Of a DNA stretch of 64,000 bases, positions 44,395-50,738 are shown piece after piece. The position numbers and the translations under genes were made by a program. The DNA is from Marsupella aquatica. Lineage: Eukaryota; Plantae; Marchantiophyta. The notes beneath the pieces were generated by a model, which saw only the letters and a program-made list of their open reading frames with translations, was not told where the DNA came from and did not search any database. Position 1 is the first letter of the stretch. Each line of letters opens with the position of its first letter. The DNA lies in the NCBI GenBank assembly GCA_973895155.1, contig OZ316897.1:17280058-17344057 (forward strand), written 5' to 3'.

Positions 44395-47300
44395 CTAGAG
44401 GTAAGATGTAAACTTCGACGGGACCATAGGAGGTTCATACATCTGGTCTTGGACATATCTTAGCCACCCACGGTTGCTGACCCCCTTGGGTTGCTCTCCA
44501 AGACCAACGCTCACAATGTACTCAGCGATACCAGCAATGAGCTGGGGTGCAACTTCCTGCAAACAATGCAGTAAAATAAGTATAAGCAGAACTTCCGAAC
44601 ATAAGATTCATAAATAACATGCACAAAGGACCTAAGTTGGAAGTCGCAATGTGGCATGTTGATTGATAAGCCATCATGGAATGGTTGCCCCCCTCCGTTA
44701 ACAGTCAGAATGCTGTGAGACTAGCCTTGGAAACGAATGATTAGGCTCATTTGTTCATGCCAGAACAGCCCATATTTTCAGGACGCCCAAAAGACAATTG
44801 TTAATAATAGGGTGCCACAATTCAACTGCCCGGAGGGATGGAGGATTCGACAGAGTGACTAGGACAAACTAATTACGGAGCAACAGCGGAGATAGAAACT
44901 CTACATAGAGCAGTTCATAACTCGGTCAGTGAGAAAGCGGCTTCTGGATTAGGAAACATCTTGACATAACAGGATGACATTTCACGGCTCTAATAAGCGG
45001 AGTTAGATCAAAAGAAATGAAGTCTACGAGAGAAATTTTGCATCGATGAAATTACCTTCATATCTGAAAATGCTGGGAACAGCATTCCTGAGTGCAGTCG
45101 AGCCTCGGGAGTTAACTCAGCTAGAAGCTCCGCCGTATGAAGGAACAGCTGTTCGGTGATTGTTTTACATCTGGTTAAGACTGCAGCCTTACCAATGGGC
45201 CCGAAGATATAAGCATTATTTGCTTGAGCAGGGAACAAGGTTCGGTCATCATTTGTCAGAAAGGGTGGGAAGGGACTCCCACTAGCAAACACAACAGTTC
45301 CTGAAGTGTATCGATAAGCTTCTTGAAAGGTGCATTCCGCCTTGGACGTTGGATTTGAGAGGGGAAAGATGATCGGACGCTCATTGTTCTCGTGCATACA
45401 TTCCAGCACCTCCTTGTTAAAAGCTCCTGCTATCGTTGACACTCCTATCAAAATCGTAGGCCTGTAAATGACCCGATTAGAAATTTGAATTTGTGATGAA
45501 CTGTTGAGAATTTCACACATAAGCTGCTAAACATCTTTATAGCCTTCAACACTAATAAACTCCTCGTCTGGTGACAGATAGGCTTCACGTGAGAAATAGA
45601 CTTACTTCAAGGCTTTCACAGCAGAAAGTAGGTCGGGCTGGAAAGCCACATCGTGAGCAAAATCCAACTTGTGATGCTGCAAGTGAGTACGAGATTTGCA
45701 GACAAGACCTTTCGAGTCTACGAAGAAACAATACTGCAATGCTGCTTCCAGTGGAAGTCCAAATTGCTCGACAAGAGCAAGAGCGATGAGCTTTCCAATT
45801 CCCGTGCCAGCCTCTCCCGCCCCTAGAAACATAACTCTCTGCTTGTTCAAAGGACGCCCTGCAATTACCGACAAGTGTATCAGCAACCACTATCAACATC
45901 ACCAGGGTATTATCCATCTATTCTAATTCTGAAATCAACTTTTCGGGAGGCAATAAGAAAGTTATAGCACATGAGATAATCAGAACGCTTAAGGACTAGG
46001 TTGGTGCATCTCAAGGCTTTTCATAATTTTGGCGTCAATGCAGGAGACAACCTCAACAGATATACACTAATTATGTTCCTGCTTAACCTAAGGATTACTT
46101 AAGATGGCATCATTGCTGTACCTGTGACCCTCAGGGCAGATAAAACTCCGGCCAGAGTGATACAGGCGGTTCCCTGAATATCGTCATTGAAACTCAATAT
46201 TTTCGTTTGGTACGTCTCCAAGATTTTAAAGGCATTCGAGTTGCCGAAGTCCTCAAACTGCAATCAAATGCAAAACGCCTGTTATGACAGACACACAGAC
46301 TTATAGAATACTGCCAAGGCTGTGAAAAGACAAGCGAGAGGACGATACTCACACAACATTAGCATACAGTTCAAACTCTTCTCAGGGAACAAGGCTATTG
46401 GAATTTACCGGATAGTTTTAGCAAGAACAAAATACCTGCAAAAGTACATTCGGCTGCCACTGCTTCAAGGCAGTGACGAGCTCATTGACAAGTGCATCAT
46501 ACTGCTCGCCACGAAGCCGCTTTTGGCGTAATCCTATATACTCCGGATCTGCAAGAAGGCTCTCTCGATTTGTCCCCACATCCAAGCACACTGGCAGGCA
46601 TTTCTTCGGATCCACACCACCAAGAACGCTATATAGGATTATCTTACCCTCACTGATGCCCATTCCCCCGGCACCCAGATCTGCAGAGCAGCAACAAAGT
46701 ATGTGTTAAACTCAACTCAGAATATAAACCTTGTCAGACTTGTGCGCTTGGACGAGGAGCATGATCCCACAACATACAAATTACGAAGTAGACAGTGTAA
46801 CAACACTATCCAAACCGTTGTAAACAGCGTAAATTGAACAGCTGAATTTACGCTGGAAGACTGGAACTCGGCACTCCTGAAATAATACACCTCAATAAAC
46901 TGAATGGGATACTCCTGCAAATGTCTACTGTAAGCACTTCAGAGGCAAGGTTGGAAGTACTATTTGATAAAGTACTCGTGGACCTCTAATCAAGCTGAGT
47001 ACACAATTGCCCGAAGTGGAATAGATTGTCAGTACAGGGCAAAGGCAGTCCTACCCACAATTTTAACGTCCACGAAGCAAGCGCAATGACAGAACGAAAC
47101 TAACTTGTCAAAATTCTATTTCATCCAGACCGCAAGAGACAAGAAGAAGCCCGTCTCCAGTGTCATGCAATTCCCACGTACACCTACCTCCGAGGCCAAG
47201 TATTCTTTCCCCATCAGTGACAACAATCACCTCAATATCTTGGTGTCGCCAGGCCTTCAACTTTTCCAAAATCTTTCCAGAGTCCTCTTGTCTTATATAC

Positions 47301-50300: not shown

Positions 50301-50738
50301 CCCTACGTCCAGCACCACCGGCATGCATTGGGCAGGATTGACACCGGCCATGACCGTGTAGAGCAGAATTTTGCCTTCGCTGATGCCCATCCCGTTGAAA
50401 CCCAGATCTCCCAACCCCAGAATGCGCTCTCCATCCGTCACCACGACAACTCGGACCGTCTGGTTGTCACCGCCCCAGGACTTGAGCTTCTTCAGCACAT
50501 TGCCTTTGTCGCTGGGCCTGATCACCAGCCCGTGCATCTTAATCGGCAATTGGCTGTATTCCACGCAAGCTTGGCCCACTGTGGGCGTGTACACGATCGG
50601 GAGCAGCTCCTGCGCATTTTCGATCAGGAGTTTGTAGAAGAGGGACTCACTGTCGGCTTGGAGTTGCCGAAGAAAGATGTACTTGTCAATGTCACTCTTG
50701 CATTGTCGCACTCCCTCCAACGCTGCTGCTTCCGCCAT
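44395..50738 (-). CDS. Tandem double malic enzyme (two probably NADP-dependent ME units in one ~1025-aa polypeptide)
   Basis: Exons 50738-49787, 48633-48368, 48139-47987, 47868-47608, 47431-47188, 46680-46436, 46257-46122, 45858-45606, 45461-45056, 44556-44395 (3078 nt, phases consistent). Each half has [67 protein letters not shown] and QANNAY. Confidence 0.92.
48140..48367 (-). other. U12-type (minor spliceosome) AT-AC intron, 228 nt
   Basis: 5' site ATATCCTTTT, branch site TCCTTGAC 10 nt before the 3' end, terminal AC. Removing it gives QANNAY|VFGPIG, matching the intron-free [12 protein letters not shown] of unit 2. Confidence 0.9.

What the first reader, a model, noticed from the sequence alone, without database searches (positions are those of the whole stretch)
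44395..50738. Single gene encoding two malic enzymes fused head-to-tail (covalent ME pseudo-dimer)
Seen: exon 4 (47868-47608) reads without a stop from the ME C-terminal motif of unit 1 (...[12 protein letters not shown]) through a ~20-aa Pro/Val-rich linker ([19 protein letters not shown]) into the start of unit 2 ([28 protein letters not shown], which aligns with unit 1 [27 protein letters not shown]). The fusion is therefore not a gene-merging artefact. Both units keep the catalytic Tyr (YTPT), Arg (DGER), Lys (EGK), metal ligands (FED, NDD) and GAGEAG, yet are clearly diverged from each other. Established: eukaryotic large-subunit MEs are ~550-650-aa single-unit chains that assemble into dimers or tetramers. 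Inference: an old duplication-fusion could fix an obligate 1:1 hetero-pair with different kinetics, cofactor use or regulation. I do not know of this architecture having been described.
Basis: partly seen in the sequence, partly recalled or inferred. Interest (0 to 1): 0.9.

Follow-up and report, generated by a model that had tools for sequence, protein, structure and literature searches.

The report
Ancient doubled malic enzyme in liverworts
This liverwort-type gene encodes two malic enzyme units joined in one 1,025-residue chain, a layout shared with a hornwort and freshwater algae related to land plants but not found in print; both halves are likely active NADP enzymes, and the tether may replace an assembly arm that this enzyme lineage has lost.

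Summary
Observation confirmed. Ten exons give a stop-free 1,025-aa chain with two malic enzyme (ME) units, 61% identical. DNA contigs of a second study and intron-free contigs from relatives bridge the junction. The doubled form occurs in Calypogeia, Marchantia, Riccia, the hornwort Nothoceros, Netrium, Closterium, Chara and Chlorokybus. Halves sort by position in a tree, so the fusion is older than the liverwort-hornwort split and probably older than land plants. Both halves belong to a green-algal ME lineage (Chlamydomonas MME2/MME3) that lacks the N-terminal assembly arm (0 of 119 against 236 of 241) and often ends in a peroxisomal signal. A minor-spliceosome AT-AC intron splits this gene in several annotations. 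Cryptophytes have an independent doubled ME. Verdict: new variant of a known kind.

The parts
49787..50738 (-). Exon 1, aa 1-317: start codon, domain A remnant, catalytic domain and first part of the cofactor domain of unit 1; no introns, GC3 0.69 against about 0.52 elsewhere
   Evidence: PF00390 1.5e-66, PF03949 5.5e-26; Calypogeia and Marchantia relatives start at the same residue
48368..48633 (-). Exon 2, aa 318-406, unit 1 cofactor domain
   Evidence: splice 48633/49787 seen in X1 and X2
48140..48367 (-). Intron 2, 228 nt, AT-AC minor-spliceosome (U12-type) intron with consensus donor and branch point; retention would stop the chain at 418 aa
   Evidence: the donor octamer occurs once in the 64-kb window, exactly here; branch motif at 48158; spliced ends and one unspliced contig; the U12 consensus itself is recalled knowledge
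47987..48139 (-). Exon 3, aa 407-457, unit 1; the intron after it sits at the same codon and phase as the last intron of unit 2
47608..47868 (-). Exon 4, aa 458-544: end of unit 1, junction and start of unit 2 in one open frame
47704..47748 (-). True linker, aa 498-512; 13 of 15 identical to Marchantia MARPO_0051s0068, 12 of 15 to the hornwort, 2-5 of 15 to the algae and to the second Marchantia paralogue
47650..47703 (-). aa 513-530: remnant of unit 2's N-terminal arm, aligning with the strand and helix around maize NADP-ME P128-F140
   Evidence: alignment of the Calypogeia relative to 9e6m; 14 of 18 identical to Marchantia and hornwort; interface role of that helix in PMC13100509
47188..47431 (-). 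Exon 5, aa 545-625, unit 2 with catalytic Tyr and Arg motifs
46436..46680 (-). Exon 6, aa 626-707, unit 2 with catalytic Lys motif
46122..46257 (-). Exon 7, aa 708-752, unit 2 metal ligands
45606..45858 (-). Exon 8, aa 753-837, unit 2 glycine-rich motif and NADP signature
45056..45461 (-). Exon 9, aa 837-972, unit 2 cofactor domain; no AT-AC intron at the site where unit 1 has one
44395..44556 (-). Exon 10, aa 973-1025 and stop
44395..44406 (-). C-terminal tripeptide SYL, a possible weak (non-canonical) peroxisomal targeting signal
   Evidence: Calypogeia a SFL, Marchantia SRL; fits the [SA]-x-[LMI] pattern of PMC3487989, although this tripeptide is not named there; untested

Best explanation
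The gene encodes one 1,025-aa chain with two malic enzyme units, both likely active and predicted to use NADP, and the conserved junction probably holds them as a tethered pair in place of the N-terminal assembly arm that this lineage has lost. Shown: gene structure, open junction, two full motif sets, loss of the arm, spread across streptophytes, and position-specific descent of the halves. Inferred: an arm-less green-algal ME gene duplicated in tandem and fused in a streptophyte alga; each half decarboxylates malate to pyruvate, CO2 and NADPH; the chain works in the cytosol or, more weakly, in peroxisomes, since it has no N-terminal transit peptide; the tether supplies the subunit contact that other MEs obtain from their arm and tail.
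For: Open junction and splicing. Two-unit proteins in liverworts, Zygnematophyceae, Chara and Chlorokybus, and a partial hornwort protein that spans the junction; the Netrium and Nothoceros ones come from transcript assemblies. Land-plant unit 1 (7 rows) and unit 2 (7 rows) each form a clade at 100/99, unit 2 joins Netrium and Closterium unit 2 at 98/85, and all units group with chlorophyte single MEs at 100/100 against canonical plant NADP-ME and bacterial MEs. Arm motif in 0 of 119 proteins of this class against 236 of 241 canonical ones; the 564-position NCBIfam model is entered at position 63-71 by this class and at 20 by a canonical-type protein. Human His51, a dimer-interface residue whose loss destabilises the enzyme, lies in the missing part. 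NADP signature in both halves. The junction is as conserved as the catalytic units among the window gene, Marchantia MARPO_0051s0068 and the hornwort, and its spacing is 41 residues in 11 of 13 land-plant sequences. Five of 489 columns are fixed differently in the two halves, two of them in domain A helices.
Against: No activity, oligomer or localisation data. Two AlphaFold models leave the relative position of the halves undefined (pTM 0.53 with 10 sequences, 0.56 with 105, junction pLDDT under 50), and no control tandem of a canonical ME was folded. Junction spacing varies from 32 to 66 residues and is poorly conserved in the algae and in the second Marchantia paralogue. Single-unit chlorophyte relatives lack the arm and evidently persist without a tether. 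A unit 1 clade that includes the algae has support of only 39/88, and the Chara unit 2 and both Chlorokybus units are unplaced, so more than one fusion is not excluded. Only 1 of 16 doubled streptophyte relatives listed has a canonical peroxisomal signal, and 2 more end in SFL.
Confidence: 0.5

Rival explanations
1. Beads on a string: a real fusion of two independent, active monomeric units with no fixed interface, kept for dosage, co-expression or import of two active sites per targeting signal.
For: AlphaFold finds no confident docking although each half has pLDDT about 91; linker length is free in the algae; Closterium cores are homogenised; single arm-less relatives exist.
Against: The junction is as conserved as the enzyme across liverworts and the hornwort; the halves have kept position-specific residues; no single-unit land-plant member was found apart from annotation splits at the AT-AC intron.
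Confidence: 0.3
2. Catalytic plus regulatory halves, as in mammalian hexokinase I (recalled): one unit has become a sensor that controls the other.
For: Unit 1 has drifted in some lineages: Chlorokybus unit 1 has changed substrate-site motifs and a branch length of 1.79; unit 1 of MARPO_0003s0094 has changes around the catalytic Tyr and Lys and in the SNPT region, and Riccia P0004 shares those at Tyr and Lys; a second Closterium paralogue has a decayed unit 2.
Against: In the window gene both halves keep every motif tested and are equally conserved: 456 of 497 and 441 of 484 identical to Calypogeia, 387 of 497 and 387 of 484 to Marchantia; invariant columns 198 and 221 of 489.
Confidence: 0.12
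3. Two separate proteins in vivo, through an assembly or annotation artefact, transcript ends in exon 4, or cleavage of the linker.
For: Some public annotations list two genes (Marchantia AXG93, M. paleacea, Riccia sorocarpa). Exon 4 has in-frame Met codons near the start of unit 2, and intron 4 holds one AATAAA. Contigs that retain the AT-AC intron exist (JGI P0508 and P0015 on a 4,597-nt contig).
Against: The split annotations break inside unit 1 at the AT-AC intron, not between the units, and later Marchantia annotations give 1,019 and 1,023 aa. Spliced contigs and transcript-derived proteins span the junction. DNA of a second study bridges it.
Confidence: 0.05

Closest known systems
Class I (large-subunit) malic enzymes: plant cytosolic and plastid NADP-ME (maize 5ou5/9e6m, sorghum 6c7n), human ME1 (3wja)
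   Same: PF00390 plus PF03949, all catalytic and metal motifs, NADP signature, fold (Foldseek E 2e-45, rmsd about 1.9 A, 47% identity to maize)
   Different: Two units per chain; about 45-60 N-terminal residues missing per unit; Glu instead of Val before the catalytic Gly-Lys; a separate clade; none of the 25 solved sequences matched has two stretches
Chlorophyte arm-less MEs, Chlamydomonas MME2 (Cre14.g629750) and MME3 (Cre14.g629700)
   Same: Same clade at 100/100, same loss of the arm, same Glu-Gly-Lys motif, 50-60% identity (gene names from PMC11548211)
   Different: Single unit; 56 of 104 single-unit members fetched end in a canonical peroxisomal signal, whereas the window protein ends in a non-canonical one
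Plant mitochondrial NAD-ME alpha/beta heterodimer (PMC5958461)
   Same: Two unlike ME units paired
   Different: Two genes and non-covalent pairing, mitochondrial, NAD-dependent; the window protein has no transit peptide and has the NADP signature. NAD-ME was not included in my tree.
Internally duplicated enzymes such as 100-kDa hexokinases and eukaryotic phosphofructokinase (recalled, not from a call)
   Same: Tandem duplication and fusion of a whole enzyme into one chain
   Different: Different families; in those one half is often regulatory, whereas here both halves of the window protein look catalytically intact
Doubled ME of cryptophytes
   Same: Two ME units head to tail in about 1,085 aa
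   Different: Canonical class with full arms and 100% identical cores; groups outside the green clade; an independent origin, and a transcript-assembly loop is not fully excluded

Membership tests
Class I malic enzyme | PF00390 followed by PF03949 | tested here: met
   Twice: window exons, whole relatives with two stretches each
Class I malic enzyme | Catalytic Tyr, Arg and Lys, metal ligands Glu-Asp and Asp, glycine-rich motif | tested here: met
   All seven motifs twice
Class I malic enzyme | ME fold | tested here: met
   Model of the 91%-identical Calypogeia protein matches 5ou5 at E 2e-45, rmsd 1.9 A
Class I malic enzyme | Oxidative decarboxylation of malate | not testable with these tools
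   Needs an assay
Canonical plant NADP-ME (cytosolic/plastid) | Single unit of 60-66 kDa assembling as a homo-oligomer | tested here: not met
   1,025 aa, two units; size and assembly from PMC5958461
Canonical plant NADP-ME (cytosolic/plastid) | N-terminal arm of domain A | tested here: not met
   Absent from unit 1, reduced to a remnant in unit 2
Canonical plant NADP-ME (cytosolic/plastid) | Falls in the land-plant NADP-ME clade | tested here: not met
   Four angiosperm NADP-MEs lie outside the 100/100 clade that holds both units
Canonical plant NADP-ME (cytosolic/plastid) | NADP selectivity residues Ser346, Lys347, Lys362 | tested here: met
   Both units
Green-algal arm-less ME lineage (MME2/MME3 type; defined here, not a curated family) | Glu-Gly-Lys motif, no arm, shared clade | tested here: met
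Green-algal arm-less ME lineage (MME2/MME3 type; defined here, not a curated family) | C-terminal peroxisomal targeting signal, common in the lineage | tested here: inconclusive
   Window ends in SYL, which fits the non-canonical pattern only
Covalent pseudo-dimer using the canonical ME dimer interface | Defined contact between the two units | tested here: inconclusive
Plant mitochondrial NAD-ME | NAD-type cofactor residues and mitochondrial presequence | tested here: not met
   NADP signature; the chain starts directly in domain A

The most novel reading that the evidence does not exclude
A third, overlooked malic enzyme lineage of land plants: an arm-less, peroxisome-targeted NADP-ME inherited from green algae, which fused into a single-chain asymmetric dimer before plants reached land, was kept in liverworts and hornworts, was lost in mosses and vascular plants, and is throttled by a conserved minor-spliceosome intron; in some lineages one half is turning into a regulatory unit.
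Probability: 0.25. Interest if true: 0.75.

Novelty: new variant of a known kind. Interest (0 to 1): 0.55.

Why it matters
The published picture of plant malic enzymes has two lineages of single-unit subunits (PMC5958461). This is a further lineage in land plants, with an architecture absent from the solved structures and not found in print, and it is present twice in the model liverwort Marchantia polymorpha, where it can be knocked out, tagged and assayed. It is a natural experiment on why MEs oligomerise: an enzyme that lost its assembly arm and gained a covalent partner, with active sites that can be disabled one at a time. If it is peroxisomal, it would add an NADPH and pyruvate source to peroxisomes of green algae and bryophytes. 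Tandem enzyme fusions are a familiar kind of event, which limits the surprise.

Tried and rejected
No whole genome is held for this window, so paralogues and canonical MEs of the same organism could not be counted. No RNA holder is on record; two runs guessed to be RNA were laid and behave as spliced contigs of relatives; contig depths were not used as expression levels. A missed upstream exon carrying the arm was rejected: a stop lies 21 codons upstream in frame and the Calypogeia and Marchantia orthologues start at the same residue. My first exon boundaries were wrong at four junctions and were corrected. My first motif classification dropped proteins with a second Gly-Lys motif, the window model among them; one search replaces it. 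The counts are over search hits clustered at 90%, with near-duplicates, and are not an independent sample. P0008 (butterfly, 1,039 aa, partial) was set aside as a likely merge of neighbouring genes, because its first unit lacks its C-terminal part. P0390 (Leptophrys transcript) was set aside as a likely collapsed unit 1/unit 2 chimera of Closterium-like prey. P0286 has two metal-site motifs and was not examined. The search of 1.84 billion representatives added no new doubled family among its best 150. Earlier scan notes: 4 unrelated bacterial loci by sequence, none by words or by relatives. One paper id was not held.
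Full report
Observation. The region holds one minus-strand gene. I rebuilt it by hand: ten exons from 50738 to 44395, 3,078 nt, 1,025 aa, no internal stop. Unit 1 is aa 1-497 and unit 2 runs from about aa 513 to 1025; they are 304 of 495 identical. 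Exon 4 carries the end of unit 1, the junction and the start of unit 2 in one frame with 0 stops, against 7 and 3 in the other frames. Seven catalytic, metal and cofactor motifs each occur twice. The last intron of each unit lies at the same codon and phase, as a tandem gene duplication would leave it.

Artefact checks. No genome is held. Six runs hold the stretch or part of it, none on record as RNA. X3 spans it with two differences and may be the source. X4, from another study, covers 46342-48926 in one contig with 0 differences; X5 and X6 also bridge exon 4. X1 and X2 are guessed to be RNA and come from related organisms. Their contigs skip the modelled introns exactly: 8 of 8 GT-AG introns in X1 and 7 of 8 in X2 among the joints listed (five joints were not shown). 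A 2,062-nt X1 contig of a related copy lies on exon 2 and on exon 5 with 415 letters between, which equals the spliced length of the model. These are contigs, not raw or long reads.

A minor-spliceosome intron. Intron 2 (48367-48140) begins with AT and ends with AC. Its donor octamer is the only such match in the window, and a branch motif sits at 48158 (the consensus is recalled). Loose ends of X1 and X2 contigs at 48139-48144 and 48368 carry the letters of the neighbouring exon, and one X1 contig retains the intron. Retention would end the chain at 418 aa. Several public Marchantia and Riccia models read into this intron and stop, which splits the gene into two entries. Their unit 2 models go wrong at the matching site too, which suggests that both halves once had the intron and the window gene lost it from unit 2 (inference). 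Such splits may have helped hide the architecture.

Distribution. A search with exon 1 among proteins of 556-2,000 aa put doubled MEs at the top: Calypogeia fissa (935 of 1,025 identical to the window model, and a second paralogue at 81%), Riccia fluitans, Netrium digitus (transcript, complete ORF), Chara braunii, Closterium, Chlorokybus atmophyticus, and a partial Nothoceros aenigmaticus transcript that spans the junction. Cluster members add Marchantia polymorpha MARPO_0051s0068 (1,019 aa) and MARPO_0003s0094 (1,023 aa). The window is therefore from a liverwort close to Calypogeia (inference). In a search with the junction region (484 hits, best 120 listed), the 11 rows with 92% or more coverage were 10 liverwort, hornwort, Zygnematophyceae or Chara proteins and one unnamed JGI protein 75% identical; angiosperm hits covered only half or less. 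No named moss, lycophyte, fern, seed plant or Klebsormidium member of this class appeared in the three lists of 120. That suggests loss in mosses and vascular plants, but the lists are cut and many rows carry no name.

Age. A tree of 47 rows groups land-plant unit 1 (7 rows, 100/99) apart from land-plant unit 2 (7 rows, 100/99), and unit 2 with Netrium and Closterium unit 2 (98/85). The fusion therefore predates the liverwort-hornwort split and probably the split from Zygnematophyceae. A unit 1 clade including the algae is neither shown nor rejected (39/88). Chara unit 2 and both Chlorokybus units are unresolved. All units fall with single-unit chlorophyte MEs in a 100/100 clade, apart from angiosperm NADP-ME and bacterial MEs; mitochondrial NAD-ME was not in the tree. 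The Chlamydomonas members are MME2 and MME3 (names from PMC11548211, passages).

What marks the lineage. Among fetched proteins, those with Glu before the catalytic Gly-Lys have the N-terminal arm motif in 0 of 119 cases, against 236 of 241 for the canonical class. The NCBIfam model is entered at positions 63-71 of 564 by this class, and unit 1 aligns to human ME1 only from residue 63. In human ME1, His51 with Asp90 or Asp139 forms the dimer interface, and His142, Asp568 and Trp572 form the tetramer interface; dimer-interface mutants melt 8-10 degrees lower (PMC3528742, passages). His51 and the tail residues lie in parts these units lack (my mapping with a ten-residue numbering offset). In maize NADP-ME the helix around K138-F140 contacts the other protomer, and C-terminal loops lie near the N-terminal helices at the centre of the assembly (PMC13100509, passages). 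The second half of the junction aligns with that strand and helix, so it is unit 2's arm remnant, and the true linker is about 15 residues. Single-unit members end in a canonical peroxisomal signal in 56 of 104 cases against 0 of 216 canonical ones. The window protein ends in SYL, Calypogeia a in SFL and one Marchantia paralogue in SRL; the other 13 of 16 relatives listed have no such end. SYL fits the weak pattern of PMC3487989 but is not named there (passages). A peroxisomal ME has been shown for the cryptophyte Guillardia (PMC9244630, passages).

How it likely works. Both halves have Glu314, Ser346, Lys347 and Lys362, the NADP-type set (PMC3183043, abstract), and are equally conserved. Whether they pack on each other is open. 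For: the junction is as conserved as the enzyme among the window gene, Marchantia MARPO_0051s0068 and the hornwort (13 of 15 and 12 of 15 in the linker, 14 of 18 in the remnant), its spacing is 41 residues in 11 of 13 land-plant sequences, and five columns are fixed differently between the halves, among them D18/Q535 and Y35/W552 in domain A (the unit 2 numbers printed there are one too high). Against: AlphaFold models of the Calypogeia orthologue fold each half well (mean pLDDT 79.5 and 90.9) but give pTM 0.53 and 0.56 with the junction under 50, the linker varies in algae, and Closterium cores are homogenised. I put the tethered pair at 0.5, independent beads at 0.3, a regulatory half at 0.12 and separate proteins at 0.05. 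Drift of one half is visible in other lineages (Chlorokybus unit 1, MARPO_0003s0094 and Riccia unit 1, a second Closterium paralogue).

Novelty. None of 25 solved ME sequences matched has two stretches. Ten full-text searches found no paper on a doubled ME or on the two Marchantia gene ids; three of them returned nothing, and the others I judged from their listings and from the passages cited here. The family survey PMC5958461 (first of eight parts plus passages) has no occurrence of 'fusion' or 'Marchantia' in its main text and notes only long-branched green-algal MEs; I did not see its supplements, which list the sequences used. A Chara carbon-concentrating study (PMC12222935, passages), the Isoetes genome preprint (one passage), a Polytomella proteome (PMC9637915, passages) and an algal C4-gene phylogeny (PMC4196954, passages) do not mention it in what I saw. 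Most subscription journals are not searched. The proteins are already in public databases as 'malic enzyme', without comment on the doubling. Whole-enzyme tandem fusions are a known kind (hexokinase, phosphofructokinase; recalled), so I class this as a new variant of a known kind. A second, independent doubled ME in cryptophytes suggests that the architecture is favoured more than once.

Verdict. Real, ancient, conserved and apparently undescribed; the mechanism is open but directly testable in Marchantia. Interest 0.55.

Noticed in passing
proteins P0506, P0513, P0009, P0010: Cryptophyte (Rhodomonas abbreviata) and related transcripts encode a separate doubled malic enzyme of the canonical class, about 1,085 aa, with distinct ends but 100% identical cores in two species-level variants: gene conversion, or an assembly loop.
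   Followed up: partly
proteins P0402-P0499 and others: About half of the single-unit green-algal arm-less malic enzymes fetched, including Chlamydomonas MME2, end in a canonical peroxisomal signal; one targeted literature search showed no paper on a peroxisomal ME in green algae.
   Followed up: partly
window 48140-48367 (-): AT-AC minor-spliceosome intron that appears shared with Marchantia and Riccia orthologues and causes split gene annotations; retained-intron contigs exist.
   Followed up: partly
proteins P0012, P0013, P0021 (Closterium): Second doubled paralogue in which unit 2 has decayed while unit 1 is intact.
   Followed up: no
proteins P0005, P0014, P0241 (Chara braunii CBR_g3078, g3084, g3085): Neighbouring copies on one contig; one appears split and merged with retroelement-like sequence in the annotation.
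   Followed up: no
protein P0298 (Logan, 1,032 aa): A malic enzyme fused behind a region that looks like a phosphagen (guanido) kinase; the resemblance is by eye only.
   Followed up: no
window 23963-27229 (+): Single long ORF of a pentatricopeptide-repeat protein (Pfam PPR) with a C-terminal region resembling an SMR domain (by eye).
   Followed up: no
window 5444-7498 (-): Exons of an RNA-recognition-motif protein (RRM_1 at E 6.7e-05).
   Followed up: no
window 49096-49127: Short repeat-like stretch in intron 1 that recruits high-depth contigs in the DNA runs.
   Followed up: no
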